Assembly (NCBI RefSeq): GCF_030028105.1
Contig: NC_092397.1
Span: 12,167,271 to 12,231,270, forward strand
Length of the DNA stretch: 64,000 bases
Direction of reading: 5' to 3'
Source: Mobula birostris
Lineage: Eukaryota
The position numbers and the translations under genes are program-made. Every line of letters begins with the position of its first letter. Within the stretch, counting starts at the first letter, position 1. Shown here piece after piece: positions 1-56,091 of the stretch. The notes under the pieces are model-generated. The model saw nothing but the letters and a program-made list of their open reading frames with translations, made no database searches and was not told where the DNA came from.

Positions 1-309
1 GCGAACCCATCACTACTTGAGGGACCTGCATGGTGAATTAATGGAACAGGCTCCCCCCTTTAAAACGTGCTGGGAAGTAGTTACTGAAGGCGCCTTTTTG
101 CCAACTTGCATTCAGAGAGATCTGTAGGACTTGTACGGAGAGATTTTTTTTTCGGAAGGGGGGAGGGATTGGGTTTGGGTGCAGGGAGATGTCCGGAAAA
201 TGGAACCAAAAATAAAACCCCTGGAACAGCATCCAATCACAATCAGGGAGAGAGATAAGCGTCAAGTGTGTTCACATAACCTACGGATCACACGGTGGAG
301 CTGCAGAGA

Positions 310-538
310 TTATATGTTTTGAGAAAGAGAGAAAGATATAATATATATAATTTTTTTTTGTTTAAATGCCACGGCGCTGTTCGTGCCACGATCGCGCGGG
401 TCGTGTATTCGTCTGGAGAGAGCAAACTTCCGGTCGGACGGCGGCGGCGGCGGCGGAGGAGGAGGAGGAGGAGGAAATCGTCGGTTCATTGGGCAATAGT
501 GGGGTTCGGTGGAATAAGCGTAGCCGTACTGATCATAC
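310..538 (-). CDS. rbm4: RBM4/RBM14-family protein, probable terminal coding exon 3
   Basis: Acceptor ctttttctcttag|G at 538. With the phase-2 donor after 3046 it reads R-YDQYGYAYSTEPHYCPMNRRF-polyPro-SDRK..., stop at 312-310. Confidence 0.55.
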
Positions 539-2852
539 CTAAGAGAAAAAGCACATCATGTCAATACAGAGAGGGTGGCAAGGAAAGACGCTCACGCATT
601 CACCGAGGGAGAGGGTGCGGGGGGAGGAGGCAAGCTAGAAGTGAGCACTGTGGGGGACTAATATAATGGGGCTCTGTGGGGAGGGAGGGTCACCTAACAA
701 TTTGAAAATTCATCTCTCGCCAATGAAGCACGGAATTTGAGGTGAGGACATGGTGTTCAGCCAGGTTTTGTGATGGTATCTGGGGCCATAAATGACCAAA
801 GATGGTGCCGTAAGCACCCCAGCAACCACTTCCCCCACCCAGTCACTCTGGTTCACAAGTCACCTCTTCCACTCTTAAACCAACAGTGGTGGGGGTTCAC
901 CTTTTTTTTAAAACCCTGACAACCTGCTATAAGGCAATTTGGAACACCATTCTCCCTCACCTACATCCCTCCTACTCAAGGGTTTAGGGTCTCTGGAATA
1001 GGCATCTTACTGTGCTACCAACACCCTCAATGTCTGTGAATGACGTATGGTTCAGGGACAATCTGAACTCATCCAGGAGGGAGTCACCACCCCTCCATCA
1101 CTTTTTGAGTCCATACCTCCAGTAGAGACACTGTCAAAGATGCAGAGATCCAGACCATTTGCGTGACACAGAGAATATAAAGGGACGTTTAACAGAAGCA
1201 GGCCCCGGCACAACACACAAGACCCACCAGCACCACAAACAGGAGTGAAGCAGCCTCTGGTAGATTATCTAAAGCATCCACAACCGTCAATGAAGTAAAT
1301 GCCAAGGCAAGAACGGAGACGGCTCATCCCTTCAACCAAAAGGCCACTGTGAGGGCTGCAGGCCACCAGGTGATCCCACCTACAACTATGGCAGGGCTGG
1401 AAACAGCACGTCAGTCTCTCCCAAGACCTCGCAATCTCTTTCTTACACATCCCCTGGGTAGGACCAAGGGAAGCGGTGATGGTAATCTCTAAATGGGCTC
1501 TGCATCCAGCCTAAGGCACAAGGTAAAATCAAACAGGAGTATAACTAAAGCGTTTGCCTACTCAAGATATTCTTACTTGTTCATCACCGTTCAGGATTAC
1601 AGGATCCCGGGAAACATGATGCAGATGTAACTCAGCACCTGGGTGATTTTCCAAGGCAGGCACACTTATCAGAATCAAAAAGGGGCTATCGCAAGACTTT
1701 CACCTTTTTCACATTCAGAATGAAACCAGTCTGAGGAAAGATGGCAAGAGCATCAAAGGCTAATAATCTGACACTCTGTGAATGGATTTATTGCAGAAGA
1801 ATGGGGTCCAGGCCAATTAAACCAGTGCCGTGTACTTGTGGGAATTTTATTACCACAAGATAAACTACTGGGTTACCAGGGATGTCCGAAGTTGTGACAC
1901 ATAAAAAGGGTTTAACGATTAGGATTGAGTCAGATTCCACTTGGGTTGCTTTCATAAGATTGCGTTCTCAATAAAAGCAAATCTGGGGTGTGGCGATGGG
2001 GAGGAGCAGTCACTGCCCTGTCCTTAACAGTGCAATTACATTACCAAATCAATGTTTGTGCTAGGATGCAAGTTCAGGGCATTGCAGAATAATCTAACAC
2101 AGTAGTCATTCAAGCCCATTCACTGTGTTTGCAATGACTCCCAAAGGGGCACCCCATCAATCCTGATCCTGTTCTTTGCCTGTGATTATTTATAATTTCA
2201 CACCTCGCCAAATATTCTTCGTGAAGTTACTGACTTGGCTTTGGGGGGGGGGGGGTCACAGACTTTTCTGCTCTCCTGAACTTGGAATATCTGTCAAAGC
2301 TCTGTTTCAGAGGTAATTCCCACCTTCAGTATCCTAGTAAATGTCCACTTACAGCCTTGTTAACCCCAACGTTCTCTCTGCTGCTCAGAGTGGGGACGGG
2401 AGGGTTCCCCTCCAGTTACGTATGGCTCTATAGCAGGCTTCGTATTTGCATGTGATGGCTACGATTGGTTAATGACCCAAAAGTCATCAATTTGCAGCTG
2501 GGGGTGGAAAGCTAACATGGCCTCCTTTAGCCTCATCTTTGACAAACGTCCTCTGGGACCTTTACACAGGCAGTGTCCAAATCAAGAACTCCAGAAACTC
2601 ACACACAATACCTGTTTCTGGCAACATTCATCCAAATCCAAACAGAGAGGGCACCATTCCCACATATGCATTCTCAAAGTAGATAACAGGGGACACCCAA
2701 CCCCATTTCAGAAGGCAAATGCTGAGATAATTTCATCTCTTTTCTCCCCAGCAACTCCTCACCCGCCCCAACCGCCACGCAACACGCCACTCCGCGCCAG
2801 CGCCAAGTTCTGCGTTACTTACTGTGGAGCCCACAGGATGCCTGGTGTGGCA

Positions 2853-3532
2853 TTACTGCTCCGTCACCTGGGCAGTCCCAAGGGAAGAGTCTTCAACGGG
2901 TGCCACCGTATTCCACGCAGCAGCAGCGACGTAAACGACATTATTCGCTGCCGAGGCCGCCATGCTCTCCCCTGTCCCCACTGCAGAAGTAAGGGCGGCA
3001 TGCCCTGCTGCCGCCGCCGCCTGCTTGCGTGCTACGGCTATGTACCTGAGGCTTTCGTCCATGTATTTCTCTGTTTGATATTTTGGCACCGTGAGCGGCG
3101 AGAGGCGGGTGCGCTCATACAGGGAGTTGTTACTGGTGGTCACTGCAGACGAGGCAAGACGATTAGGGCTCCTCTCTCTTCCATAATCGAGAGTCGCATA
3201 ACCAGCGGCAGCGGTGGCCGTCTGGTAATCTTCGTAATAGTCGTAATAGGAGCCGTGACCGTAATCGTAGTCGTAATAGGAATAGTAAGAGGGGTAGTAT
3301 TGGGACGCCAGCTGGTACTGGCTGTACTGATTCAGGCGCAGTGAGTGGCAATCTCGAGCTTGGTGGCCCTGCCTTCCGCAACGCTGACATACTTCCCGCT
3401 GCCCACCAGATTTCCCATAGGTCGACCTGGAGAGCTGCACCCTGAGCTTGTTCCCTAGGAACTCCTGGCCGTCTAGGCTGGCTATTGCTTTGATTGCATC
3501 TTCCTCTTTTTCCATGTGGACAAAAGCATAAT
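2853..3532 (-). CDS. rbm4: RBM4/RBM14-family protein, coding exon 2 (end of RRM2, CCHC zinc knuckle, Tyr/Ala-rich region)
   Basis: Acceptor tttttcag|AT completes D-YAFVHMEKEED in phase. CQRCGRQGHQARDC knuckle. Read-through stop at 2853; possible internal donors after 3046 and 2868. Confidence 0.85.
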
Positions 3533-5908
3533 CTGAAAAAGAGGAGGAAGGAAAGTTACATTCGCATCTTAGAAAACAGCATTGGCACCCAATTGCTGCC
3601 CAATCCCCAGCAGGGCCATTAGAAAGCTGTTGTTTGAATCATGACACAGTAGCACTAAACCTCCGCTATGATACACAAGCAGATGCCTAGTCACCTTCAG
3701 TCCTGTCAATTACTTAATTTTCTTTCATGATCAGATCTAGTCAATATCCAGGCTGAAAAGTGGAAAATTACACGGTGGATGATGGTCATTTCTGATCAGA
3801 GTTCACCTTGAAATGGGGCAGGTACAATGATACGATTTAAAAACCACTGGGATACTATGGGGGGTGGATCTGGGCCAAATGGAGGAAATTGAGATTAGAT
3901 GGTTGGGCATCATGATATGACATGGACACATTGGGCTCTACGCCTCTGCAAGTTTGCCTCCATCTGACTGGGAGCTCAGTGAACCAACCGTGGCTAACAG
4001 AGCTGCTCAGCGCCCCATCCACTACTGTAAACGCTCGCTCCAATCCACATCCCCCCACAGAGAGGCTTCAGTGGGAATCAGCTACAAAACCAAGGGGGTG
4101 TATCGGTTAGTGGAAGCTGTTACAGCTCAGAGTCAATTCCAGAGATTATACGTTCTCCCCATAACCTCGTGGACTTTCTCCCACATTCCAAAGAGGTACT
4201 GGTTAGTAGGTTAATTTGTCCTGTGATTCGGTTAGCGTTAAAGAGTGGAGTGCTGGACAGCGTGACTCTTTGGATTGGAAGGACCAGTTCCACACTAAAC
4301 TAAAGCATACTACAATTGTGGCAGCAAGTAGAGCTGCTGCCATATGGCACCCAGTGAACTGAGGCTCAATCCTCACTGCAGGGGCTGTTTGCATGGAGGT
4401 TTCATGCCTTCTCCGGGACTGCACCGAGTTTCCCGAGGTCCCCCGATTCCGTCTCACACCAAAGACGTGCATTTTGCTTGGTTAACTCGCCTCTGCAAGT
4501 TGCGCCCAGTGCATGGGCAGGTGGTAGAATATGAGAGGAGGCAGGAGAGAGGAGAGTCAATGAGGATGTGGGGGGGGGGGGGAGGGAGGGGCAGGGGAAC
4601 ATAAACAGGACTAACCAACGTTAGCACTAATGGTTCAGTGTGGATGTGGCGGACTGGTCATCCTTTAATTCTTTCTACATCGGTCTGCAGCAACTGGAAC
4701 ACCACCCCGTGCAATACCACGCACCATACCAAATAACACACTACTTCTGTGATCTTTGGCTTTGAACCTACCTAACATTACTATGGACATTATTATCGTG
4801 TCTGCTGAAGGGTCTTGGCCTGTAGTTCTTTTCCATTGATGGTGCATGGCCTGCTGAGTTCCTCCAGCATTTTGTGAGTGTTGATTGGACTTCCAGTGCC
4901 TGCAGATTTTCTCTTGTTTGTGATTGGAATACTACAGGTGTACCTTCACTGGAGAATCTTAGTGATCCCAGCAGTAACCCTGGGGTCACTGACTGGGAAA
5001 TAATATATCTAACAGCAGCACCCTTTGCCAGAATGAATGGAATGGACCTGACACATTCCCCTGAATGTATCTCGGGTCTCCAATTTACCTTTCTGTCAGT
5101 GAATTAGTCAACCACACATCTTCACATATCCTACTAAATCCATGTAATCACATAAAGCCTGTAAGACATAGGAGTTCATTTAGTCCATTCAACCCATCAG
5201 CAAATCAACAATTGCATCATGGCTGATTTATTATCCTTTCCAAACCTACTCTTCTGCCTTCTCCCCATAAGCTACGTCCTTACTAATCAAGAACGTCATT
5301 GCCTTTGTATAGAAAATCCTACAGAAGGTAGTGGATTTGACCCAGTACATCACAGGCAAAGCCCTCACCATCATTGAGCACATCTACTTGAAACGTTGCC
5401 GTAGAAAAGCAGCGTCCATCACCAGAGATCCCCACCACCCTTCTCGCTGCTGCCTTCAGGTAGAAGGTACAGGAGCCTCAGGACTCGCACCACCAGGTTG
5501 AGGAACAGTTACTACCCCTCAACCATCAGGCTCTCGAACTAGTGATTAACTACACTCACTTGCCCCATCATTGAGATGCTCTCACACTTTAAGGACTCTT
5601 TATCTCATGTTCTCGTTATTTATCGCTTATTTGCATCCGCAGACTTTGTTGTCTTGTGCACTCTGATTAATCTTTCACTGATCCTGTTAAAGCAACAGAT
5701 CACCTTTAGATTCTAAAACTCAGGGTTGTATACGCACTTTTGATAATAAAATGTACACAGAACGGGCTCATTCTCCCTTTGACGTGCAATGGCGCCGGGC
5801 TGCGTAACGTCATGACGTCAGAGGAATCCCTTCTATTCCTCCGCCGGGCTCTCGGAGGCCCTAAGCGAACCTGCGCCTCCCCCCACCAACCCCCCGGGGC
5901 CCCCTCAC

Positions 5909-6248
5909 CTTTGACGATGTCGCACTCGACCACGCGGCCGTACTCCTCGAACTTGGCCCGCAGCTCCTGGTTGCTGCAGCTGGCCGCCAGGTTGCCCACG
6001 TAGACCTTGGTGACGGCCGCGGAGATCGGGGGCTTAGGCCGCGACTCGGCCACGTTGAGCTTCTGGCCGTGCAGCTCGTACTGGTTGAGCGCGGCGATGG
6101 CCTGCGCCGCCTCCTCGGGGCTGTCCATGTGCACGAAGCCGTAGTGCCGGATGATATCGCACTCCCGCACCGTGCCATAATACTCGAAGAGCGTACGCAA
6201 CTCCTCCACCGTGCCCTCAGTCGGGATGTTGCCCACAAATATCTTCAT
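5909..6248 (-). CDS. rbm4: RBM4/RBM14-family RNA-binding protein, coding exon 1 (RRM1 and first half of RRM2)
   Basis: MKIFVGN..HYGFVHM (RNP2/RNP1) and [26 protein letters not shown]. Ends at donor AAG|gtgag; 340 nt, phase 1. Confidence 0.9.
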
Positions 6249-8386: not shown

Positions 8387-10560
8387 TGCAAACAACAGGA
8401 ATTCTGCAGATGCTGGAAATTCAAGCAACACACATAAAAGTTGCTGGTGACTCAGTTGCTGGTCCCTGGATCGTGACCCCACTAAGGAGCACCAGGCCAT
8501 TGTCTCCCACACCATCACCGACTTTATCAGCTCAGGGGATCTCCCATCCACTGCTACCAACCTTATTGTTCCCACACCCCGCACTTCCCGTTTCTACCTC
8601 CTACCCAAGATCCACAAACCTGCCTGTCCTGGCCGACCTATTGTCTCAGCTTGCTCCTGCCCCACCGAACTCGTTTCTGCATACCTCGACACAATTTTAT
8701 CCCCCCTTGTTCAATCCCTTCCTACCTATGTTCGTGACACTTCTCACGCTCTTAAACTTTTCGATGATTTTAAGTTCCCTGGCCCCCACCACTTTATTTT
8801 CACCATGGATGTCCAGTCCTTATATACTTCCATCCCCCATCAGGAAGGTCTCAAAGCTCTACGCTTCTTTTTGGATTCCAGACCTAATCAGTTCCCCTCT
8901 ACCACCACTCTGCTCCGTCTAGCGGAATTAGTCCTTACTCTTAATAATTTCTCCTTTGGCTCCTCCCACTTCCTCCAAACTAAAGGTGTAGCTATGGGCA
9001 CCCGTATGGGTCCTAGCTATGCCTGCCTTTTTGTTGGCTTTGTGGAACAATCTATGTTCCGTGCCTATTCTGGTATCTGTCTCCCACTTTTCCTTCGCTA
9101 CATCGACGACTGCATTGGTGCTGCTTCCTGCACGCATGCAGAGCTCATTGACTTTATTAACTTTGCCTCCAACTTTCACCCTGCCCTCAAGTTTACCTGG
9201 TCCATTTCTGACACCTCCCTCCCCTTTCTAGATCTTTCTGTCTCTGTCTCTGGAGACAGCTTATCCACTGATGTCTACTATAAGCCTACTGACTCTCACA
9301 GCTATCTGGACTATTCCTCTTCTCACCCTGTCTCTTGCAAAAACGCCATCCACTTCTCGCAATTCCTCCGTCTCCGCCGCATCTGCTCTCAGGATGAGGC
9401 TTTTCATTCTAGGACAAGGGAGATGTCCTCCTTTTTTAAAGAAAGGGGCTTCCCTTCCTCCACTATCAACTCTGCTCTTAAACGCATCTCCTCCATTTCA
9501 TGTACATCTGCCCTCACTCCATCCTCCCGCCACCCCACTAGGAATAGGGTTCCCCTGGTCCTCACCTACCACCCCACCAGCCTCCGGGTCCAACATATTA
9601 TTCTCCGTAACTTCCGCCACCTCCAACGGGATCCCACCACTAAGCACATCTTTCCCTCCCCTCCCCCTGCATTCCGCAGGGATCGCTCCCTACGCGACTC
9701 CCTTGTCCATTCGTCCCCCCCATCCCTCCCCACTGATCTCCCTCCTGGCACTTAGCCGTGTAAGTGGAAAAAGTGCTACACATGCCCTTACACTTCCTCC
9801 CTTACCACCATTCAGGGCCCCAAACAGCCCTTCCAGGTGAGGCGACACTTCACCTGTGAGTCGGCTGGGGTGATATACTGCGTCCGGTGCTCCCGATGTG
9901 GCCTTTTATATATTGGCGAGACCCGACGCAGACTGGGAGACCGCTTTGCTGAACACCTACGCTCTGTCTGCCAGAGAAAGCAGGATCTCCCAGTGGCCAC
10001 ACGTTTTAATTCTACATCCCATTCCCATTCTGACATGTCTATCCACGGCCTCCTCTACTGTAAAGATGAAGCCACACTCAGGTTGGAGGAACAACACCTT
10101 ATATTCCGTCTGGGTAGCCTCCAACCTGATGGCATGAACATCGACTTCTCTAACTTCCGCTAATGCCCCACCTCCCCCTTGTACCCCATCTGTTACTTAT
10201 TTTTATGCACACATTCTTTCTCTCACTCTCCTTTTTCTCCCTCTGTCCCTCTGAATATACCCCTTGCCCATCCACTGGGTCCCCTCCCCCCCCCCCCGTC
10301 TTTCTTCCCGGACCTCCTGTCCCATGATCCTCTGGTATCCCTTTTGCCAATCACCTGTCCAGCTCTTGGCTCCATCCCTCCCCCTCCTGTCTTCTCCTAT
10401 CATTTTGGATCTCCCCCTCCCCCTCCAACTTTCAAATCCCTTACTCACTCTTCCTTCAGTTAGTCCTGACAAAGGGTCTCGGCCTGAAACGTCGACTGCA
10501 CCTCTTCCTAGAGATGCTGCCTGGCCTGCTGCGTTCACCAGCAACTTTGATGTGTGTGGC
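8387..10560 (+). mobile_element. Penelope-like retroelement (Neptune type), 5'-truncated
   Basis: RT motifs GVAMGTRMGPSYA and RYIDD, Cys linker (CKWKKCYTC), GIY-YIG endonuclease (VIYC..LYIGET..RFAEH). One in-frame stop at 9753. 12-bp TSD TAGTAGTTAGCA at 8375-8386 and 10561-10572. Confidence 0.92.
10462..10497 (+). ncRNA. Hammerhead motif in the Penelope 3' terminus, core-mutated
   Basis: AGUC-CUGACAA-AGG..CCU-GAAAC-GUC-GACU, with G8>A relative to the 6960-6995 copy. Confidence 0.55.
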
Positions 10561-18072: not shown

Positions 18073-19716
18073 CAGTGCCTATAGAAAGTATTCACCACGC
18101 TTCCCCCCCACCCCCGGCTTGGAAGTTTTCATGCTTTATTGTTTTACAATATTGAATCACAGTGGATTTAATTTGGCTATTTTTGACACTGATCAACAGA
18201 AAAATACACTTTTGTGCCAGAATGAAAACAGATCTCTACAAAGTGATCTAAATTAATTACAAATATAAAACACAAAAGAATTGATTGCATAAGTATTCAC
18301 CCCCTTCAAGTCAGTATTTAGTAGATGCACCTTTGGCAGCAATTACAGCCTTGAGTCTATGTGGATATGTCTCCATCAGCTTTGCACATCTGCACACTGC
18401 AATTTTTCCCCATTCTTCTTTACAGAACTGCTCAAGCTCTGTGAGATTGCGTGGGGATCATGAGTGAATAGCCCTTTTCAAGTCCAGCCACAAATTGTAT
18501 GTTGGATTGAGATCTGGACTCTGACTTGGCCACTCCAGGACATTAACTTTGTTGTTTTTAAGCCATTTCTGTGTAGCTTTGGCATTAAAATTGGGGTCAT
18601 TGTCTTGCTGGAAAACAAATCTCCCAGGTCACAGTTCTCTTGCAGACTGCATCAGGTTTTCCTCTAGGATTTCCCTGTGTTTTGCTGCATTCATTTTATT
18701 GTCTACCTTCACAAGCCTTCTAGGGCCTGCTGCGGTGAAGCATCACCACAGCATGATACAGTCACCACCATGCTTCACGGTAGGGATGGTGTGTTTTCGA
18801 TTATATGCGGTGTTTGGGTTACACCAAACATAGTGTCAAGTCTGATGGCCAAAAAACTCAATTTCGGTTTCATCAGACCATAGAACCTTCTTCCAGCTGA
18901 CTTCAGAGTCTCTCACATGCCATCTGGCAAACTTCAGCCAAGAATTCATGTCAGTTTTTTTCAACAGAGGCTTTCTCTTTGCCACTCTCCCATAAAGCTG
19001 CAACTGGTGAAGCTCCTGGGCAACAGTTGTTGCATGCACAGTCTCTCCCATCTCAGCCACTGAAGCTTGTAACCCGTCCAGAGTTGTCATAGGTCTCTTG
19101 GTGGCCTCCCTCACTAGTCCCCTTCTTACACAGTCACTCAGTTTTTGAGGACGGCCTGCTCTGGGCAGATTTACAGCTGAGCCATATTCTTTCCATTTCT
19201 TGATGATTGAATTAACTGTACTCCAAGTATTCAGTGACTTGGAAATTTTCTTGTATCCATCTCCTGACTTATGCTTTTCAATAACTTTTTCGCAGAGTTG
19301 CTTGGAGTGTTCTTTTGTCTTCATGGTGTAGTTTTTGCCAGGATACTGACTCACCAGTAGTTGGACCTTCCAGATACGGGGGTATTTCTACAACAATCAA
19401 TGGAAACACCTTGACTGCACACAGGTGATCTCTATTTAACTATTATGTGACTTCTAACAGCAATTGGCCACACCAGTGATGATATGGTGTGACATGTTAA
19501 AGAGGGTGAATACTTATGCAATCGATTATTTTGTGTTTTTTATTTGTAATTAATTCAGATCACCTTGTAGAGATCTGTTTTCAATTTGACAGGAAAGAGT
19601 CATTTTCTATTGATCAGTGTCAAAAGCCAAATTAAATCCACTGTGATTCAATGTCGTAAAACAATAAAACATGAAAACTTCCATGGGGGGGGGGGAGGAT
19701 GGTTTTATAGGTACCA
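18073..19716 (-). mobile_element. Tc1 DNA transposon (IR/DR type) with frameshifted transposase
   Basis: TA|CAGTG terminus, ~230-bp imperfect TIRs with internal direct repeat AAGTATTCACC. ORF 18836-19354 has GRPQK and WSDET; [10 protein letters not shown] follows downstream of the ORF's stop. Confidence 0.9.
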
Positions 19717-20779: not shown

Positions 20780-23700
20780 GGAGAACCGCGTTATGGAACT
20801 GGAGCTGCAGCTCGATGACCTTCGTCTGGTCAGGGAGAGTGAGGAGCTGATAGAGAGGAGTTACAGGCAGGTGGTCACACCGGGGCCACGGGAGGCAGAC
20901 AAGTGGGTCACGGTTAGGAGGGGGAAGGGTAAGACTCAGGTAATAGAGAGTACCCCGGTGGCTGTGCCCCTTAACAATAGGTACTCCTGTTTGAGTACTG
21001 TTGGGAGTGACAGCTTACCTGGGGGAAGCAACAGTGGCCGTGCCTCCGGCATGGAGTCCGGCCCTCTAGCTCAGAGGGGTAGGGAAAGGAAGAGGAGGGC
21101 AGTTGTGATAGGGGACTCGATAGTAAGGGGGTCAGATAGGCGATTCTGTGGACACAGTCCAGAGACCCGGATGGTAGTCTGCCTCCCTGGTGCCAGGGTC
21201 CGGGATATTTCTGATCGTGTCCCAAGATATCCTGAAGTGGGAGGGTGAGGAGCCAGAGGTCGTGGTACATATAGGTACCAATGACATAGGTAGGAAAAGG
21301 GATGAGGTCCTGAAAGGAGAATATAGGGAGCTAGGAAGGGAGTTGAGAAAAAGGACTGCAAAGGTAGTAATCTCAAGATTACTGCCTGTGCCACGCGACA
21401 GTGAGAGTAGGAATGCGATGAGGTGGAGGATAAATGCGTGGCTGAGGGATTGGAGCAGGAGGCAGGGATTCAAGTTTTTGGATTGGGACCTCTTTTGGCG
21501 CGGGCGTGACCTGTACAAAAAGGACGGGTTACACTTGAATCCTAGGGGAACCAATATCCTGGCAGGGAGATTAGCGAGGGCTACTGAGGTGACTTTAAAC
21601 TAGAATGGTTGAGGGGTGGGAATCAAATTAAAGAGGCTAGGCGAGAGGAGGTTAGTTCACAACAGGGGGATGGGAACCAGTATAGAGAGACAGAGGGGTG
21701 TAAAGTGAGGGTAGAAGCAAAAAGTAGTAAGGAGAAAAGTAAAAGTGGCAGGCCGACAAATCCAGGGCAAGCATCAAAAAGGGCCACTTTTCAACATAAT
21801 TGTATAAGGGCTAAGAGAGTTGTAAAAGAGCACCTGAAGGCTTTGTGTGTCAATGCAAGGAGCATTCGTAACAAGGTGGATGAATTGAAAGTGCAGATTG
21901 TTATTAATGATTATGATATAGTTGGGATCACAGAGACATGACTCCAGGGTGACCAAGGATGGGAGCTCAACGTTCAGGGATATTCAATATTCAGGAGGGA
22001 TAGACATGAAGGAAGGGGAGGTGGGGTGGCGTTGCTGGTTAAAGAGGAGATTAACGCAATAGAAAGGAAGAACATAAGCCGGGAAGATGTGGAATTGATA
22101 TGGGTAGAGCTGCATAACACTAAGGGGCAGAAAACGCTGGTGGGAGTTGTGTACAGGCCACCTAACAGTAGTAGTGAGGTCGGAGATGGTATTAAACAGG
22201 AAATTAGAAATGTGTGCAATAAAGGAACAGCAGTTATAATGGGTGACTTCAATCTACATGTAGATTGGGTGAACCAAATTGGTAAAGGTGCTGAGGAAGA
22301 GGATTTCTTGGAATGTATGCGAGATGGTTTTTTGAACCAACATGTCGAGGAACCAACTAGAGAGCAGGCTATTCTAGACTGGGTTTTGAGCAATGAGGAA
22401 GGGTTAATTAGCAATCTTGTCGTGAGAGGCCCCTTGGGTAAGAGTGACCATAATATGGTGGAATTCTTCATTAAGATGGAGAGTGACATAGTTAATTCAG
22501 AAACAAAGGTTCTGAACTTAAAGAGGGGTAACTTTGAAGGTATGAGACGTGAATTAGCTAAGAGAGACTGGCAAATGACACTTAAAGGATTGACGGTGGA
22601 TATGCAATGGCAAGCATTTAAAGGTTGCATGGATGAACTACAACAATTGTTCATCCCAGTTTGGCAAAAGAATAAATCAAGGAAGGTAGTGCACCCGTGG
22701 CTGACAAGAGAAATTAGGGATAGTATCAATTCCAAAGAAGAAACATACAAATTAGCCAGAAAAAGTGGCTCACCTGAGGACTGGGAGAAATTCAGAGTTC
22801 AGCAGAGGAGGACAAAGAGCTTAATTAGGAAGGGGAAAAAAGATTATGAAAGAAAACTAGCAGGGAACATAAAAACTGACTGTAAAAGCTTTTATAGATA
22901 TGTAAAAAGGAAAAGACTGGTAAAGACAAATGTAGGTCCCCTACAGACAGAAACAGGTGAATTGATTATGGGGAGCAAGGACATGGCAGACCAAATGAAT
23001 AATTACTTTGGTTCTGTCTTCACTAAGGAGGACATAAATAATCTTCCAGAAATAGTAGGGGACAGAGGGTCCAGTGAGATGGAGGAACTGAGCGAAATAC
23101 ATGTTAGTCGGGAAGTGGTGTTAGGTAAATTGAAGGGATTAAAGGCAGATAAATCCCCAGGGCCAGATGGTCTGCATCCCAGAGCGCTTAAGAAAGTAGC
23201 CCAAGAAATAGTGGATGCATTAGTGACAATTTTTCAAAACTCGTTAGATTCTGGACTAGTTCCTGAGGATTGGAGGGTGGCTAATGTAACCCCTCTTTTT
23301 AAAAAAGGAAGGAGAGAGAAACCGGGGAATTATAGACCGGTTAGCCTAACGTCGGTGGTGGGGAAACTGCTGGAGTCAGTTATCAAAGATGTGATAACAG
23401 CACATTTGGAAAGCGGTGAAATCATCGGACAAAGTCAGCATGGATTTGTGAAAGGAAAATCATGTCTGACGAATCTCATAGAATTTTTTGAGGATGTAAC
23501 TAGTAGAGTGGATAGGGGAGAACTAGTGGATGTGGTATATTTGGATTTTCAAAAGGCTTTTGACAAGGTCCCACACAGATTAGTGTGCAAACTTAAAGCA
23601 CACGGTATTGGGGGTAAGGTTTTGATGTGGATAGAGAATTGGTTAGCAGACAGGGAGCAAAGAGTGGGAATAAACGGGACCTTTTCAGAATGGCAGGCAG

Positions 23701-24718
23701 TGACTAGTGGGGTACTGCAAGGCTCAGTGCTGGGACCCCAGTTGTTTACAATATATATTAATGACTTGGATGAGGGAATTAAATGCAGCATCTCCAAGTT
23801 TGCGGATGACACGAAGCTGGGCGGCAGTGTTAGCTGTGAGGAGGATGCTAAGAGGATGCAGGGTGACTTGGATAGGTTGGGTGAGTGGGCAAATTCATGG
23901 CAGATGCAATTTAATGTGGATAAATGTGAAGTTATCCATTTTGGTGGCATAAATAGGAAAACAGATTATTATCTGAATGGTGGCCGATTAGGAAAAGGGG
24001 AGGTGCAACGAGACCTGGGTGTCATTATACACCAGTCATTGAAAGTGGGCATGCAGGTACAGCAGGCGGTGAAAAAGGCGAATGGTATGCTGGCATTTAT
24101 AGCGAGAAGATTTGAGTACAGGAGCAGGGAGGTACTACTGCAGTTGTACAAGGCCTTGGTGAGACCACACCTGGAGTATTGTGTGCAGTTTTGGTCCCCT
24201 AATCTGAGGAAAGACATTCTTGCCATAGAGGGAGTACAAAGAAGGTTCACCAGATTGATTCCTGGGATGGCAGGACTTTCATATGAAGAAAGACTGGATG
24301 AACTAGGCTTGTACTCGTTGGAATTTAGAAGATTGAGGGGGGATCTGATTGAAACGTATAAAATCCTAAAGTGATCGGACAGGCTAGATGCAGGAAGATT
24401 GTTCCCGATGTTGGGGAAGTCCAGAACGAGGGGTCACAGTTTGAGGATAAGGGGGAAGCCTTTTAGGACTGAGATTAGGAAAAACTTCTTCACACAGAGA
24501 GTGGTGAATCTGTGGAATTCTCTGCCACAGGAAACAGTTGAGGCCAGTTCATTGGCTATATTGAAGAGGGAGTTAGATATGGCCCTTGTGGCTAAAGGGA
24601 TCAGGGGGTATGGAGGGAAGGCTGGTGCAGGGTTCTGAGTTGGATGATCAGCCATGATCATAATAAATGGCGGTGCAGGCTCGAAGGGCCGAATGGCCTA
24701 CTCCTGCACCTATTGTCT
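20780..24718 (+). mobile_element. Near-full-length CR1 LINE (SGNH-esterase ORF1; APE + RT ORF2)
   Basis: ORF1 VIGDSIVRG, HIGTND, DGLHL. ORF2 NARS, YRPP, MGDFN, SDH, YLDFQKAFDKV, KFADD. 782-aa open stretch 22026-24374. Confidence 0.95.
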
Positions 24719-29741: not shown

Positions 29742-30011
29742 TCATATGGTGATGTGGAAGGAGTCCTCCAGCCACTTGTCCCGGGAGTTCTGGGTGTGGG
29801 GAACCTTCAGACTGCTGCGTGGTGCCTCGTCCCCCACCTGCTCGGCCTCGTATTCCTCCTCCTCCTCGTAGTAGCTGTTCTCTGGGGAGAAGGGGCCCTC
29901 GGGGGCCGCGGCGGCGCTGGCGTCCTGGTACAGGCCCTTGTATTCCTGGATGGCCTCGTAGAGCGACCAGAGCTTGCACAGGAGGGACATGTCCAGCTGC
30001 CGGAGGCCCAC
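29742..30011 (-). CDS. fam89b: FAM89B (LRAP25) coding exon 2
   Basis: cag|VGLRQLDMSLLCKLWSLYEAIQEYKG..DKWLEDSFHITI*; phase 0, 270 nt. Confidence 0.9.
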   Translation of the reverse strand: MGLRQLDMSLLCKLWSLYEAIQEYKGLYQDASAAAAPEGPFSPENSYYEEEEEYEAEQVGDEAPRSSLKVPHTQNSRDKWLEDSFHITI

Positions 30012-30363
30012 CTGCGGAGGGGAGAGGACAGCACTGGTGAGGGACACGGCATGGCCTGACAGGGGGCCCAGTAGCCAGCTTGTTACCGACACAACTGCCC
30101 TGTAACCCCTCGGGGAGGGGGGAGAGAGGGAGGGAGAGGGGGAAGGAGAGGAGAAGGGGGAGGGATGGGGAGGGAGAGATAAGGAATGGGGAGGGGGAGG
30201 GAGGGATAGGGGATGGGGAGAGGGGGAGGGGGAAGGAAGGGGAGAGGGGGGAGGGAGAGGGGAGAGGAGGGAGTGAGGAGCAGAGGGAGAGGGGGAGAGG
30301 GAGAGTGGGGGGGGGGGAAGAGAGGGGAAAAAAAAAACAGCCAGGGTTCCAGCTCTCCATCAC

Positions 30364-30810
30364 GACCGGTCCACCCCTGGGTTAGAGAGAGAGGGGAATC
30401 AGTCAGGTTTCCTGTTCCCCGTCACTGACCGGTCACCCCTGGGTTAGAGAGAGAGGGGAATCAGTCAGGGTTCCTGTTCCCCGTCACTGACCGGTCACCC
30501 CTGGGTTAGAGAGAGAGGGGAATCAGTCAGGGTTCCCGCTCCCGCTCACTGACCGGTCACCCCTGGGTTAGAGAGAGAGGGGAATCAGTCAGGGTTCCTG
30601 TTCCCCGTCACTGACCGGTCACCCCTGGGTTAGAGAGAGAGGGGAATCAGTCAGGGTTCCCGCTCCCGCTCACTGACCGGTCACCCCTGGGTTAGAGAGA
30701 GAGGGGAATCAGTCAGGGTTCCTGTTCCCCGTCACTGACCGGTCACCCCTGGGTCAGAGAGGGAGAGGAAATCAGCCAGGGTTCCTGTTCCCCGTCACTG
30801 GGTTAGAGAG
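30364..30810. repeat. 62-bp tandem repeat (~7 units) in the FAM89B intron
   Basis: Unit GACCGGTCACCCCTGGGTTAGAGAGAGAGGGGAATCAGTCAGGGTTCCTGTTCCCCGTCACT. Confidence 0.95.
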
Positions 30811-31105
30811 AGGGTGGGGGTGAATCCGCCAGGGTTCGGCGAGGCAGATAATGATAATGAAGTAAGCAGGCAGCAGCTGCCCGGAGCGGGTAACCGTGTC
30901 AACCTCGGCACCTGCTGGGTCCTCTCTCCTTTCTCGTATCACGCTCTCACTTCCCTCAGCGGCTACTGCCGCATCCTGTGTAGGAGCTGGGAGAGAGACG
31001 GGGCAAACGCACCCCTCGGGCTCAGCTCCAGAGTTCCCAGCAAGTTCACCTCTGCTTGACTTCCAATGGCTGGGAGGGTCAGTGGTGGATGGGACACATT
31101 TCCTA

Positions 31106-31489
<384 letters not shown>

Positions 31490-37827: not shown

Positions 37828-38180
37828 CTACGCCAGCCGCTTCAGGCTGTGCAGGGAATCGGCGCAGCTCCGGATCAGGCCGCAGAGCTGCGCGCTGTAC
37901 TCGACGGACGCGGCCCGCTCCAGCTCGGCGCAGGCCCAAGCCAACTTCCGCAGCACCGCCCGCTCGGCCTCGGCGGGGGCGCCGGCCTCAGGGGCCGGGG
38001 GAGGGGGGGCCGCGGCGTCCGGCGCCGCCAGATGGGCGGCGGGGAAGGAAGCCGCTGGCTCGGGCCGCTCCTCCACCTGCAGGTCCGGGGTGGGACAGCT
38101 CCTGTACGGCTGCTCGGGCTGGCCGTTGTAGAGACGTTGCCGCTCCCTCACTTGGGTCAGTGCTGCCTGCGGGTTCAAGG
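37828..38180 (-). CDS. znrd2: ZNRD2/SSSCA1 coding exon 4
   Basis: cag|CC gives A-LNPQAALTQVRERQ..AVLRKLAWA..QLCGLIRSCADSLHSLKRLA*; phase consistent. Confidence 0.9.
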
Positions 38181-39239
38181 CTGTGGGATGAAGAAGGCAT
38201 GAACAGCACCCGTTAGACTTGCATCTGTACAGCACCATCACCGTCCCATAGACCAAGCAGATCGCCGGGTCTCTCTTCCACATTTACTGGGGGGCGTCAT
38301 AGATGGAGGGCCCCTGCCACGCGTCCCACAATCTCTTTGACCCTCGACAGTCAGGAAGGAGGTACAGGAGCCTCAGCACTAGGACTGCCAGACTGGTTAA
38401 CAGCTTCTTCCTTCAGGCTGTGAGGTTAATGAATACCCTGCCACTACCATGGTCTCGTCACCGAGCTGTTTACTGTCTGTCTGTCTGTCCGGCGCCCTAC
38501 AGGCATTCTGAATTATATTTTAATAACTTATTTATGGTAATATTTTGTTTGACGTCCTGTGTGCGATATACATTCTGTGCTCCAGAGGAATGTTTTGTTG
38601 CGTTGCATACCTGTACTCAAGAATCGAGTTTCTCCTCTTCCTTCCCACGGGGGGGTGGGGGGGTCCCAGTTTCTCCACCGTGCTCCCCTCAAGGTGGTAA
38701 ACCAGTAAATCACCACAAGGCCGGGCGTGTGTGGCAACAGGCCACGGGGACAGGAGAGGCACGGGAGGGTGCGTTTGACAGGGGTAATATATCACTCTAC
38801 CCCTCCCATTTCACGTGTCACAGGGTACCGCAGCATCAGGACAGGCCTTTCGGCCCATCTAGCCCCCTGCCGACCTCACCCCCGGCTCACATCCGCCCAA
38901 AACTTCCCTCGAGCGTTACAGCCGAACTCGCGCACACCACCTCTGGCCGCCGGCAGCTCGCTCCACGTTCGCGCTGCCCTCTGAGGAAGCTGCCCCTTAA
39001 TACTTCACCTTTCACCCTAAACCTGTGACCTTTAGTCTCACCTGAGCTGAGGAGTGGGGCGGGGGGGGATGAAGCCTGCACGCAATTACCCTATCTATAC
39101 CCATCTTACACACACAGGGGATTCTGCAGATGCTGAAAATAATAAGCCACACACACAAAATGCGGGAGGAACTCAGCAGGTCGGGCAGCCGCCTACGGAG
39201 GCGCGAAACGTTGACAGTTCATTCCTCTCCACGGATGCT

Positions 39240-39848
39240 GTCTACAGAACACTGAGGCTGTCTACAAGAAGGGTCAGAGCTGTCTCTATTTCCTGAGGAG
39301 ACTGAGGTCCTTTAACATCTGCTGGACGATGCTGAGGATGTTCTACGGGTCTGTGGTGGCCAGTGCTATCATGTTTGCTGTTGTGTGCTGGGGCAGCAGG
39401 CTGAGGGCAGCAGACACCAACAGAATCAACAAACTCATTCGTAAGGCCAGTGATGTTGTGGGGGTGGAACTGGACTCTCTGACGGTGGTATCTGAAAAGA
39501 GGACGCTGTCCAAGTTATATGCCATCTTAGTCAATGTCTCCCATCCACTACATAATGTACTGGGTGGGCACAGGAGTACATTTAGCCAGAGACTCATTCC
39601 ACCGAGATGCAGCACAGAGCGTCATAGGAAGTCATTCCCGCCTGTGACCATCAAACTTTACAACTCCTTCCTTGGAGGGTCTGACACCCTGAGCCAATAG
39701 GCTGGTCCTAGACATATTTCATTATTTCCTGGCATAATTTACATATTACTATTTAACTATTTATGGTTCTATTACTATTTATTACTTATGGCGCAACTGT
39801 AACGAAAACCAATTTCCCCCCGGGATCAATAAAGTATGACTATGACTG
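39240..39848 (+). mobile_element. Rex1/Babar-like LINE 3' fragment
   Basis: MFYGSVVASAIMFAVVCWG ORF, AATAAAG plus (TATGAC)n tail. Confidence 0.75.
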
Positions 39849-39924
39849 TGCTGCCTGACTTACTGCATTTTGTGTGTGTGTGTCGCTCAGAGTGACTCTT
39901 TATGCCCTGCCCTGTACTGTTGAC

Positions 39925-40190
39925 ACGGCCACCATCGTCATGGAGATGGATTGGGGACGTGATGAGAGGAGAGGCCAACATCATCGAGACAGCAGTTGAC
40001 TGGACCCCCGAGGGATTGAGGAGAGGTGGGAGACCAAGGACAACCTGGTTCTGTACCGTAGAGGCAGAAGTGAGGACCCCGAACCACACCTGGGGCACCA
40101 TAGGGAAGATAGCCGAGAACAGGCAGAGACAGGGGACCTTCATCGCTGCCCTAAATGCTCAAGCAGCATAACAGGGTGAGGAAAATGGAC
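39925..40190 (+). mobile_element. RTE-X-like fragment
   Basis: WRWIGDVMR..WTPEG.RRGGRPRTTW. Confidence 0.6.
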
Positions 40191-40695
40191 TGTATTGCTG
40201 TCACCAACTCCAGCAGATTTCTGCAGATGCACCGAGGAGAGCATTTTCCAACTCCGGTACTGCACAGGACTGGGAAAGAGTTGCAGAGGGTTGTGAAAAC
40301 TCAAGACAGCTCCATGAGGACACCCTCAAAGAGCAATGCCTCAAAAAGAGGCTTCATCCTGCTTTGAGGACCCCCGCCACCCGGGACATGCCCTCGTCTC
40401 ACTGCTACCGCCAGGGGAGGGGATACAGGAGCCTCGCCGTTTCTTCAGCGTTTTGTCTGTTTTTTTTTAACGAGGCCGAGTTGCTAGCCCGACACTGCCG
40501 GCCTTGTGGTGACTTACCAGTCTACCACCTGGGGGGCACGACAGAGAAACTGGAGGAAAGTGCGCAAGGGGCCGGCCGGATTTCAGCCGGGGACCGCCTG
40601 CCCCGAAGTCCAGTGCTGATGCCACACCGCCGGCCGGCTGTACCGCCTACATAGCCTGATAATTAACTTTGAAGTTTTCTGTACCGTTAGCACCT

Positions 40696-41000
40696 GGCTG
40701 GTGGCGTAGTGGCATCAGCCGCCGGACTTCGGGATGAAAGGTCCCGAGTTCAAATCCAGCCGGCTCCCTTGCACGCTTTCCATCCGTGCTGGGTTACGAG
40801 CTGGTGATCTCACCCTGCAGTAAACCACTGCCGTAACTTCCCTCGTACGCGGTTCCCCACTACGTCAGAGAGGCGTGGAGGGAAATCGTCCACTAACTGG
40901 AGAAACTCTGAATGCGACGTACCTTTCCCTTATACCACTGGCAAATCACCCCACAGCCTCTGAGAAAACAGTTTGTCCAGCTTACCCCTGCGCTAATGAA
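40696..41000 (+). mobile_element. tRNA-derived SINE of a second family
   Basis: A box TGGCGTAGTGG and B box GAGTTCAAATCC; no complete cloverleaf. Confidence 0.5.
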
Positions 41001-41122
41001 CCAACCGAGGCTTGTGAAGCTCCAACACCCTCCCCAGCACCTCACTTTCCTCCCGCGCCAACGCAACGCCCCGCGACACTCAAAGTGCGATCCGAGCATA
41101 ATCGCACTGACGCTCCCTTTAC

Positions 41123-41207
41123 CTGGGTTGTCTTTGTCCACATCAGAGTTCAGCTCCTGGCAGGCCACACAGTAGGTCTTCTGCTTCTTGTCCTGGAGAA
41201 GGACGGT
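41123..41207 (-). CDS. znrd2: ZNRD2 coding exon 3
   Basis: TVLLQDKKQKTYCVACQELNSDVDKDNP; 85 nt, AG/GT flanked. Confidence 0.92.
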
Positions 41208-41229
41208 CTGCGGAGCGGAATGGGTAACT

Positions 41230-49925: not shown

Positions 49926-50837
49926 AACTAACTGAGTAAAGAGACCAAGATGCTCATTCAAGCTCACTTGCCCAGCTTTGCCCCATATACATCTAAACCA
50001 GGGGTCCATGGGCCCCTCAGTGAATGGCAGGGGTCCACGGTGTAAAAGGAAGGTTGGGAACCCCTACAACCTTTCCTAGCCATGTCCCTTCCTCTAGCTG
50101 CTGGTTTCACCGAAGTGACAGCCTCTGTGTGAAGAATTTGCCACTCAGGCCCGTTTCACATCTCTTCCCCCCAATACCTCAAACCTATGCCCTGTCCCTG
50201 GGGAAAAGACTACACACATTCACCCTGGGTAGGCCCTTTATTTAATACACTTCCCTCCGGTCACCTCTCAGTCTTAACTGTGTAGCAGATGGTCTAATGC
50301 TATCACAGCACCAGCGACCCCGGGTCAGTTTTACCAGGGTCGTGACCGAGCGGGTTTGCTCCGGGTGCTCTGGTCTCATCCCACGTTCCAGAAGGTCACG
50401 TGGACGTAATTGGGCAGTGAGGGGTCATTGGGCCAGAGGGGCCTGTGGCCGAGCTGTATCTCCAAATTGAAAAGAAATAGCCCAGCCTCTGCCTATAACT
50501 CAGGCTCTTGATTCTTGAAAACGTTCTCATTTGTTGATGAGAGGCATTGATGGTGTGATAGCCAGAGGCTTTTTCCCAGGGCTGAAATGGCTAACATCAG
50601 GGGGCACAGTTTTAAGGTGCTTGGAAGTAGGTACAAGGGCCCAGTTCTGCTCCTGTGTTTTAGTCTTATGGTCTGTTTTCAAAGCAGAAACAAACAGACT
50701 TTTGAATACTAATGAACGTGCAAGAAAGCAGTGCAGAGTAGACTCTACCTTATGGACGGGCAGGGTGAGTACAAAGCGGCCAAGTGGCCTACCCCCTGAT
50801 TCACAATGTCTTTTCGCTTCCTGTCGTTCCAGGCAGG

Positions 50838-51005
50838 ATGCTCCCTCAGTACTGCGTCTCGCTGGCCAGCGTGCAGAAGGCTCAGGCCACCATCGATGGC
50901 TTGGTCCACCGAACCCCTGTCCTCACCAACTCCACCCTGGACCGTCGGGCGGAGCGGCGGGTCTTCCTCAAGTGCGAGCTTTTCCAGAAAACGGGATCGT
51001 TCAAG
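50838..51005 (+). CDS. srr: Serine racemase, first coding exon
   Basis: MLPQYCVSLASVQKA..HRTPVLT..FLKCELFQKTGSFK|gtagg; 168 nt, PLP lysine is residue 56. Confidence 0.93.
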
Positions 51006-51544
51006 GTAGGACACCTCTGGCCAGACCTCTGCAATCCTCTGAAGGCAAATGGGGACGGTATTCGCTTTCTCTTGCAACTTGGCTGTGTGTCAGTCTTTAC
51101 GTATAGTTAATTAGGTCAACGTTCGGTCAGACGGCGGCGCGCATGGTCGCAACTGCCACTCTGGGTCCAACCAAAGGACTCCATGCTGGGTTGGGGGGGC
51201 TGCCCCTCTCCGTCGATGCTGCCCTCCAGTGTTCGCTCACTGGCAGATAAGCTGGATTGCGTTTGTCTGTGGCTGCACCAGTAAACTGCTGGGGGCTTGT
51301 CATTGCCGACAACATCCATGCATCCTCAATCTACAGGACAAGACACTCAGGGACTTGGGCTATATTATATTTTTTTGTGTGACTGTATATTTACTGCTAT
51401 CTTACAGGTGCGATGTGTACCTTGTGCTGTGTATGACTGATGATATTGTGTTTTGTACCTTGGCCCCGGAGTAACACTGTTTCATTTGGCTGTATTCGTG
51501 TATGGTTAAATAACAATTAAATTGAACTTAAATTCAAACTTGAT

Positions 51545-52410
51545 TTGGATAATGGCTTTGTGGCCAAATTTGCGGACCATACAAAGGTAGATGGAGGGGT
51601 GGTCGGTGTTAAGGGAGCTGAGGTCTTGGATAGATTAGCGGAATTGGTAAAAAAAAGTGGCAGATGGAATACACTGTATAGTCATGCACTTCAGTTCAAA
51701 TGATAAAGGCATAGAATATTTTCCAAGCAGGGAGCAAATTCGGAAATCCAAGATGCAAAGGGACATTGTAATCCTTATGCCGGATTTCCTAACAGTTGAG
51801 TCAGTGGTGAGGAAGGCAAATGCAATGCTAGCGTTCATTTCTAGAGGGCTGGTATATAAAAGCAAGGGTGTGATGCTGAGGCTTTATAAGGCACTGGTCA
51901 GACCGCACCTGGAGTACTGTGAGCTGTTTCGGGCCCCAAGTCTAGCTGGCATTTTAGAAGGTCCAGAAAAGGTTTGCGAGAATGATCCCAGGAGTGAATG
52001 GGTTAATGTATGAGGAGCATTTGGTACCTCATGCTGGAGTTTAGAAGATTGATGGGGCGGGGGGATCTCATTGAAACATTGAAAGGCCAAGATAGAGTGG
52101 ATGTGGAGTGTATGTTTCCAGTAGTGGGGGAATCTAGGACCAGAGGGCACAGGGTCAGAGTACAAGGACGTCCCTTTCAAACAGATAAGAAGGAATTTCT
52201 TTAGTCAGAGGGTGGAGAGTCTGTGGAATTCATTACCACAGATGGCTGTGGAGGCTGTCATTGGGTATATTTAAAGTGGGGGGTGATAGGTTCTTAACTA
52301 GTGAGGATAGCAGGAGAACAGGGTTGAGAATGACAACAATTCACCCATGTTGGACTGGCTGAGCAGACTCGATGGGCTGAATGGCCTAATTCTGCTCCTG
52401 CGTCTTACAG
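51545..52410 (+). mobile_element. Degraded CR1 3' fragment
   Basis: KANAMLAFISRG..LVRPHLEYC. Confidence 0.75.
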
Positions 52411-52436
52411 TCTTATTGGTGTACGTGTTGTTGCAG

Positions 52437-52566
52437 ATCCGAGGAGCCCTGAATGCGGTGTCCGGCCTCGCTGAGAGGGGGCAGGAAGGCCTCCAGGCCC
52501 GAGCGGCGGTGACCCACAGCAGTGGCAACCATGGACAGGCGCTGGCCCTCGCTGCCCGAATGAAAG
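52437..52566 (+). CDS. srr: Serine racemase, coding exon 2
   Basis: IRGALNAV..VTHSSGNHGQALALAA; 130 nt, phase 1. Confidence 0.93.
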
Positions 52567-52839
52567 GTGCGGAGGGCTGGATGTGGCGTGGAGGCTAACC
52601 TTTCCTGCACCACGGTGCTGTACGGTGTGAGAAGAAGGCCCCATTGTATACAGTGGCACCAGTACTGGAGCTCAGCGCACTCAGTCATAGAGATCGGGGG
52701 TAATGGGATGGCAGAGGGAACGCCCCGCGTCTCTTTAACTGGCCACAGCACGGCCACCCCTTTAATTGCCTGTGCTGGCCCTGTTCCATTATCCCATAAG
52801 CTATGACTGAATGTCTTCACATCACTGCACGTTCCTTCA

Positions 52840-53590
52840 TAGAACATAGAAACCTACAGCACATCGGAGGCCCTTCGGACCACAGTGTTGTGCCAACCTC
52901 GCAACCCACTCTAGAAGCTGCCTTGAATTACCCTACCGCATAGCCCTATATTTTTTTTAAACTCCATGTACCTATCTAAGAGTCTATTAAAGGACCTTAT
53001 TGTATCTGCCTCCACCACCGTTGCCCGCATTGTACTCCACGCACCCACCACTCTCTGTGTGAAAAACGTATCTCCAAGTACCTACTTCCAAGCCCCCTCA
53101 TGTTAGCCATTTCAGCCCTGGGGAAAAGCCTCTGACTATCCACATGATCAATGCCTCTCATCATCTTGTACACCTGTATCAGATCATCTCTCATCCTCCA
53201 TCGCTCCAAGGAGAAAAGGCCAAAAGTTCACGCAACCTATTCTGATAAGGCATGCTCTCCAATCCCGGCAACATCCTTGTAAATCTTTCCTGCACTCTAT
53301 GGTATCCACATCCTTCCTGTAGTGAGGTGACCAGAACTTAGAACAGTACTCCAAGTGTGGTCTGACCAAGGTCTTGTATAGCTGTAACGTTACCTCTCAG
53401 CTCTTGAACTCAGTCCCACGGTTAATGAATGCCAACTCACCATACACCTTCTTAACAACACTGTCAACCTGTGCGGCAGCTTTGAGTGTCCTATGGACAC
53501 GGACCCCATGATCTCGCTGATCCTCCACACTGCCAAGAGTCTTATCATTAACATTATATCCTGTCTTCAAATTTGACCTTCCAAAATGAT
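52840..53590 (-). mobile_element. CR1 3' fragment
   Basis: VRPHLEYCSKFWSPHYRKD; same subfamily as 15180-15910. Confidence 0.8.
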
Positions 53591-53669
53591 CATCTTCTAA
53601 CTCAATGTGTTTGTTTATCTGAGATGTGGCTTGTTCACTGTCCTACTGTACAGGCATTGCCCCTTTGAA

Positions 53670-55880: not shown

Positions 55881-55987
55881 GGGTCCCTGCTCTGCTGAGG
55901 GAGGGCCAGTTAATTCACCTAATGACCTCAAACTCCTTTCTTGCTGCATTTCCAACCATTCACAACCATACCTTTGAACCTCCTCAG

Positions 55988-56091
55988 GAATTCCCTCGTA
56001 CGTGGTTGTACCTCGAACAGCCCCAGCCTGCAAGAAGGCCGCCATGCTGGAGTACGGCGCACACCTCCTGGAGTGTGAACCCACCGACGAG
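55988..56091 (+). CDS. srr: Serine racemase, coding exon 3
   Basis: GIPSYVVVPRTAPACKKAAMLEYGAHLLECEPTDE|gtgag; 104 nt. Confidence 0.93.

What the first reader, a model, noticed from the sequence alone, without database searches (positions are those of the whole stretch)
310..6248. RBM gene combining RBM14-type exon structure with an RBM4-type zinc knuckle
Seen: intron 1 splits IVK-D/YAFVHM, the last junction is a phase-2 R|Y, the protein starts MKIFVGN, and it contains YERTRLSP. It also has [10 protein letters not shown] and an intact CX2CX4HX4C knuckle. From recall of the human genes, the first set of traits matches RBM14 (no knuckle) and the second matches RBM4/LARK (intron placed later, near FQG/K). 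Inference: this may be an ancestral-type paralog that shows how RBM14 arose from an RBM4-like gene.
Basis: partly seen in the sequence, partly recalled or inferred. Interest (0 to 1): 0.7.

Follow-up and report, generated by a model that had tools for sequence, protein, structure and literature searches.

The report
Ray RBM14 keeping ancestral zinc knuckle
This is a ray's splicing-factor gene, most likely its copy of RBM14 although databases call it RBM4-like; it has a zinc knuckle that fish RBM14 also has and land-vertebrate RBM14 lacks, so it is probably the old form of a known gene, not a new hybrid.

Summary
The gene is real: three exons on the minus strand, two RRMs, an intact CCHC knuckle, 339 aa, identical to a database ray protein named RBM4-like. 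Intron 1 (IVK-D, phase 1) is confirmed. The R|Y junction is not the one seen in 8 of 8 runs laid: they splice from a donor 223 nt further on, after the stop. R|Y is the junction in shark protein models, and ray exon 3 keeps a frameshifted relic of the shark tail. MKIFVGN and YERTRLSP also occur in RBM4 or hagfish proteins. The mix is not unique: bowfin and bichir rbm14 have the knuckle and isoform breaks at both positions. Three true RBM4 genes in this genome have other introns. The gene sits beside CCS, and one RBM4 near a spectrin gene, splitting the mammalian cluster. Trees keep it out of RBM4 but do not settle its sister: RRMs alone lean to RBM4 plus hagfish, RRMs plus knuckle weakly to RBM14. 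Verdict: likely the elasmobranch RBM14 orthologue (0.75), knuckle ancestral, no long prion-like domain. The scan noted a different shark RBM4/14 copy earlier. Modest interest.

The parts
5909..6248 (-). Exon 1, coding part (340 nt): RRM1 and first half of RRM2; contigs extend the 5' UTR to at least 6379
   Evidence: Pfam RRM_1
3533..5908 (-). Intron 1, GT-AG, phase 1, splits IVK-D/YAFVHM (RBM14-type position)
   Evidence: joint 3532/5909 in 4 of 4 runs; isoform census
2823..3532 (-). Exon 2 (710 nt): end of RRM2, knuckle, Tyr-rich stretch, RERSP, YERTRLSP, Ala-rich tail, stop, 30 nt of 3' UTR
3348..3389 (-). CCHC zinc knuckle, residues 162-175; lacks the LRxxPGMG and GHWS signature of RBM4, hagfish and Lark knuckles, as bowfin and reedfish rbm14 do
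3165..3179 (-). RERSP motif, predicted SRPK1 phosphorylation site by analogy with RBM4
   Evidence: PMC3602429 parts 1-2
3096..3119 (-). YERTRLSP motif, shared by RBM14, many RBM4 and hagfish proteins; not diagnostic
3040..3048 (-). R|Y phase-2 donor (last exon base 3046): the break point of shark protein models, not seen used in 8 of 8 runs; +5 base is A here, G in read-through forms of other batoids and sharks (inferred from Val against Ile)
2853..2855 (-). TAA stop of the 339-aa product
539..2822 (-). Intron 2, GT-AG, in the 3' UTR; also covered by lower-depth contigs, likely a retained-intron form
1..538 (-). Exon 3, non-coding in the observed splice form; runs on left of the window
486..538 (-). 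Relic of the shark coding tail: 14 codons line up with the shark peptide, then one extra base shifts the final Ala-Gln-stop out of frame
   Evidence: against P0004-P0006, P0008, P0031, P0035

Best explanation
This expressed, spliced ray gene is most likely the cartilaginous-fish orthologue of RBM14, which keeps the zinc knuckle likely inherited from the Lark-like ancestor of RBM4 and RBM14. Shown: exon structure, 339-aa product, knuckle, neighbours. Inferred history: RBM4 and RBM14 arose by local duplication before jawed vertebrates split; RBM14 kept the knuckle in cartilaginous and ray-finned fishes and lost it in lobe-finned fishes (and again in one teleost copy); the long YxxQ prion-like domain was added later, between the RDRSP and YERTRLSP motifs, in tetrapods. 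In rays the main transcript reads through the old R|Y donor, stops in the extended exon 2 and splices 30 nt after the stop, which should escape nonsense-mediated decay; exon 3 lost its coding role. Predicted function, untested: a nuclear splicing regulator that binds RNA with two RRMs and the knuckle, uses a short Tyr-rich stretch for weak multivalent contacts, and is regulated by phosphorylation at RERSP.
For: Intron 1: 11 of 106 RBM14-type proteins break right after xVK, 0 of 85 classified RBM4-type proteins (of 97) do, and 33 of those 85 break at F[QK]G instead (35 flagged, 2 misflagged). Bowfin rbm14b X1 has an insert at that site and Polypterus X2 ends at the R of the R|F junction. Three ray RBM4 genes have introns at codon 35 (phase 0) and FK-G (phase 1) and none at IVK-D. 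Knuckle: present in 6 of 7 bowfin/bichir rbm14 rows (the seventh is cut short inside it), 0 of 107 lobe-finned RBM14 rows; present in sturgeon P0301 and P0304, absent in coelacanth. Synteny: CCS is the next gene; a spectrin-repeat gene lies about 170 kb behind the C33 RBM4, tail to tail; a pig table puts CCS, RBM14, RBM4B and SPTBN2 within 46 kb of one SNP (PMC11165779, one passage). The best genome hit of newt RBM14 is this gene, and no other RBM14-like locus was among 7 matches (strict first look). Trees: RBM4 is a clade without it (95/98; 97/95); grouping with the ray RBM4s is rejected (AU p 0.004); with the knuckle it joins RBM14 (63/81; 91/86; 74/89).
Against: RRM-only trees put it with RBM4 plus hagfish (89/93; 94/92). 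No AU test between sister placements was significant (with RBM14 p 0.21, 0.29, 0.17; with RBM4 p 0.50, 0.20, 0.19, 0.47, 0.44). RRM identity is higher to RBM4 (56.9%) and hagfish (57.5%) than to RBM14 (50.9%). Informative RRM columns: 3 side with RBM4, 1 with RBM14. One tree put a third family (X) between it and RBM14 (85/82). The 91/86 tree left out Lark, family X and two other rows and used blocks chosen after seeing the data. R|Y also appears in hagfish isoforms and the SRPR linker in tunicates, so these may be ancestral; the same could hold for IVK-D, which I could not test. ESM Atlas ranks RBM4 clusters first (0.95 against 0.91). Gene order against CCS is reversed from the human order I recall.
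Confidence: 0.75

Rival explanations
1. A separate, old paralog near the RBM4/RBM14 split, kept only in cartilaginous fishes, with ancestral introns; cartilaginous fishes would have lost true RBM14.
For: RRM-only trees group it with RBM4 and hagfish; one tree makes it sister to X plus RBM14 (86/78); R|Y seems present in hagfish (P0010 against P0045); it lacks the derived RRM1 residues of RBM14.
Against: Needs two reciprocal losses; the distributions are complementary in what the searches returned; it lies beside CCS; its knuckle has lost LRxxPGMG/GHWS as fish RBM14 has; with hagfish X and tunicates added, X leaves RBM14.
Confidence: 0.2
2. A divergent RBM4 duplicate of cartilaginous fishes, as database names imply.
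For: RefSeq names RBM4-like; knuckle, [10 protein letters not shown], a stop just before the last junction as in the C33 RBM4; Atlas features.
Against: Outside the RBM4 clade; grouping with ray RBM4s rejected at p 0.004; it lacks both RBM4 introns and has one that RBM4 lacks; the stop-before-junction state is secondary, since sharks code into exon 3.
Confidence: 0.05

Closest known systems
Ray-finned fish Rbm14 (bowfin, reedfish and bichir rbm14b; zebrafish rbm14a/b)
   Same: Two RRMs plus CCHC knuckle without the RBM4 signature; isoform breaks at VK-x/YAF and at the late R junction; RDRSP-type motif.
   Different: Fish proteins are 544-581 aa with a long Ala/Tyr/Gln region before RDRSP (8 YxxQ in bowfin, 0 in the ray), lack YERTRLSP and have more derived RRMs.
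Lobe-finned RBM14 / CoAA (lungfish, coelacanth, tetrapods)
   Same: Intron 1 position, RDRSP then YERTRLSP then R|Y order, neighbour CCS; lungfish also has a short spacer and 0 YxxQ.
   Different: No knuckle (0 of 107; coelacanth); tetrapods carry a prion-like domain (27 YxxQ in a rodent; same count in PMC6796953) and a longer coding last exon.
RBM4 / RBM4B / Lark
   Same: Two RRMs, knuckle, RD/ERSP, higher RRM identity.
   Different: Different introns, different knuckle linker, a separate clade; three true RBM4 genes exist in this genome.
Elasmobranch database proteins named RBM4-like or RBM4B-like (P0001-P0008, P0011)
   Same: Direct orthologues; P0011 is identical.
   Different: Shark main models end in a 16-residue exon-3 tail; batoid models read through; the name is probably wrong.

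Membership tests
RBM14 orthologue group | Phase-1 intron after xVK in RRM2 | tested here: met
   position in RBM14 inferred from isoform breaks, not from their genomic DNA
RBM14 orthologue group | Coding junction at R|Y after YERTRLSP | tested here: inconclusive
   donor present but unused in 8 of 8 runs; break point of shark models; also seen in hagfish
RBM14 orthologue group | One clade with bony-vertebrate RBM14 | tested here: inconclusive
   joined in 3 trees, not in 3; never at the starred level, never rejected
RBM14 orthologue group | Locus next to CCS in the RBM4-SPTBN2 region | tested here: met
   mammalian cluster from PMC11165779; gene order recalled
Mammal-type RBM14 (CoAA) | No knuckle and a long YxxQ prion-like domain | tested here: not met
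   knuckle present, 0 YxxQ; fish rbm14 fails the knuckle part too, so this marks the tetrapod form only
Mammal-type RBM14 (CoAA) | Paraspeckle localisation, phase separation, coactivation | not testable with these tools
   needs expression in cells
RBM4 | Two RRMs and a CCHC knuckle, RD/ERSP | tested here: met
RBM4 | Phase-1 intron at F[QK]G, none at IVK-D | tested here: not met
RBM4 | LRxxPGMG linker and GHWS knuckle | tested here: not met
RBM4 | Inside the vertebrate RBM4 clade | tested here: not met
   a sister position to RBM4 is not rejected

The most novel reading that the evidence does not exclude
The gene is a living proxy of the RBM4/RBM14 common ancestor, kept as its own paralog in sharks and rays, and the rays' shift of the last donor past a new stop replays how RBM4 got its 3' UTR intron: RBM4's terminal R-Y and RBM14's R|Y junction would be the same ancestral splice site.
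Probability: 0.2. Interest if true: 0.55.

Novelty: new member of a known kind. Interest (0 to 1): 0.33.

Why it matters
It fixes the likely order of changes in RBM14: knuckle first, loss in lobe-finned fishes, prion-like domain last. It suggests a misnamed gene across sharks and rays. It offers a natural RBM14 without YxxQ repeats, a ready test of what the paraspeckle protein did before it had its prion-like domain (zebrafish Rbm14 needs both RRMs and phase separation; PMC6796953). The ray splice shift is a clean case of a coding exon turning into UTR. None of this would greatly surprise a specialist.

Tried and rejected
No RNA holder was on record as RNA; the runs are guessed RNA. Tandem paralogs left of the window: none in 200 kb. 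Family X (knuckle-less, Pro-rich, in hagfish, sharks and ray-finned fishes) is not the shark RBM14, since bowfin has both; no X copy was among 8 matches in this genome. The likeness of shark and lungfish sequence before R|Y is weak: p 0.017 uncorrected, 1 of 12 comparisons for the shark query and 0 of 12 for the ray (one search took the wrong lungfish segment). The SRPR linker was dropped as a shared derived trait because tunicates have it. The RBM14-CCS joint does not mean CCS lacks a first exon; it has a candidate of its own. Ten paper searches listed no paper on the RBM14 knuckle or on shark RBM14; subscription journals are not covered, and Brooks 2009 (PMC2709364) was not held. No chimaera or lamprey orthologue was identified, and intron positions outside this genome rest on protein isoforms. 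No fold was run: the domains are standard.
Full report
Structure. The gene lies on the minus strand. Exon 1 has 340 coding nt (6248-5909), exon 2 runs 3532-2823, and exon 3 starts at 538. Contigs of 4 runs join 5909 to 3532 and 2823 to 538; 4 more runs show the 2823/538 joint and exon-1 sequence at 3534. The product stops at 2855-2853, 30 nt before the last junction, at 339 aa, and is identical to P0011, named RBM4-like in Mobula.

The last junction. Shark orthologues end R then YDQFDYDN..RYAQ, and their isoforms diverge at this Arg or Ser, which fits phase 2. Some shark models also read through, ending in a tail like the ray's (P0032, P0033). Ray exon 3 lines up with the shark tail for 14 codons, then one extra base shifts the last Ala-Gln-stop.

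Are the traits diagnostic? MKIFVGN starts hagfish proteins, and YERTRLSP or ERTRLSP occurs in sole and lungfish RBM4 and in hagfish. The knuckle is not confined to RBM4: 6 of 7 bowfin and bichir rbm14 rows have it, the seventh being cut inside it, against 0 of 107 lobe-finned rows. Sturgeon P0301 and P0304 have it; coelacanth, P0361 and P0362 do not (reading P0304, P0361 and P0362 as teleost is my inference from likeness, not a name from a call). RBM4, hagfish and Lark share LRxxPGMG and GHWS around the knuckle; the ray gene and fish RBM14 lack both.

Introns. This genome holds three RBM4 genes (C33 9.75 Mb, C6 189.7 and 191.6 Mb) with introns at codon 35 in phase 0 and at FK-G in phase 1, none at IVK-D. 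Among fetched proteins, 33 of 85 classified RBM4-type rows break at F[QK]G and none after xVK; 11 of 106 RBM14-type rows break after xVK. Bowfin rbm14b has an isoform with an insert at that site, and a Polypterus isoform ends at the late Arg. Knuckle plus RBM14-type junctions is therefore also the state in ray-finned fishes. These positions are inferred from protein models.

Neighbours. No paralog lies in 200 kb to the left. The next gene is CCS: a Sod_Cu exon 19.5 kb left, an HMA exon matching CCS structures and a candidate first exon in a CpG-rich stretch. A spectrin-repeat gene lies about 170 kb behind the C33 RBM4 on the opposite strand; SF1 and BBS1 are on the same contig. A pig table places CCS, RBM14, RBM4B and SPTBN2 within 46 kb of one marker (PMC11165779, one passage), and RBM14 lies just upstream of RBM4 in human and mouse (PMC4267627, passages). 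The cluster appears split in the ray into this gene plus CCS, and RBM4 plus spectrin; calling the spectrin SPTBN2 is inferred.

Trees. In the five trees with both full groups RBM4 and RBM14 are each a clade without the ray gene, and joining it to the ray RBM4s is rejected (p 0.004). Its sister is not settled. RRMs alone give RBM4 plus hagfish (89/93, 94/92). Adding the knuckle gives RBM14 (63/81, 91/86, 74/89), or X plus RBM14 (86/78). No AU test between these was significant. Rows were chosen by hand from 393 fetched proteins; one search left out Lark, X and two more rows, ten near-duplicates. RRM identity and site patterns favour RBM4, as expected either from kinship or from faster change on the bony-vertebrate RBM14 stem.

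Reading. Gene structure, knuckle type, neighbours and complementary distribution make orthology with RBM14 the simplest account (0.75); a separate old paralog remains (0.2). Function is predicted by analogy: RNA binding by the RRMs and knuckle, splice-site control, and phosphorylation at RERSP, which SRPK1 is reported to target in RBM4 homologues (PMC3602429, parts 1-2 of 4 read). The ray protein has 0 YxxQ motifs against 27 in a rodent; PMC6796953 (passages and section 11) reports the same 27, three in zebrafish Rbm14b, and has no occurrence of the word zinc in its main text; its supplements were not read and may show the knuckle. The long repeat sits between RDRSP and YERTRLSP in tetrapods but before RDRSP in bowfin and reedfish, which suggests separate expansions.

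Novelty. The protein is in databases and the combination exists in fish rbm14, so this is a new member of a known kind, likely misnamed. Ten searches listed no paper that states the knuckle history, within an open-access library.

Noticed in passing
window 2823 to G000:C33 about 12151360 (L011:4090): One contig in run X1 joins the 2823 donor to CCS exon 2 in the reading phase of the RBM gene but after its stop: a likely read-through transcript. Contigs in X2, X6 and X11 also break at 2823.
   Followed up: partly
G000:C33:9746272-9760344; C6:189.7 Mb; C6:191.6 Mb: Three RBM4 genes share a phase-0 intron at codon 35, one base from the site that matches this gene's RRM2 intron; one has a tail of YSPGR-type repeats.
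   Followed up: partly
P0081, P0096, P0228, P0231, P0232, P0323, P0367: A third, knuckle-less, Pro-rich RBM4/14-like family in hagfish, sharks and ray-finned fishes, named lark or RBM4-like; not found in this genome.
   Followed up: partly
P0249: Sevengill shark has a divergent second copy of this gene, with the accession number next to the orthologue's.
   Followed up: partly
window 539-2822: Intron 2 is covered by lower-depth contigs in 7 of 8 runs, while intron 1 shows mostly repeat-derived cover: likely a retained-intron long 3' UTR.
   Followed up: no
window 29742-31489, 37828-41228, 50769-56346: Exons resembling FAM89B (recalled; no Pfam match), ZNRD2/SSSCA1 (weak Pfam E 0.02) and a serine-racemase-like PALP enzyme.
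   Followed up: partly
window 8451-10163, 18836-19387, 21942-24374, 57284-60671: LINE-type reverse transcriptase remnants and a Tc1-like transposase fragment, by recalled likeness.
   Followed up: no
P0054, P0056, P0061, P0070: Teleost rbm4.1 models named splicing factor 1, one fused to SF1 domains: read-through into neighbours seems common in this family.
   Followed up: no
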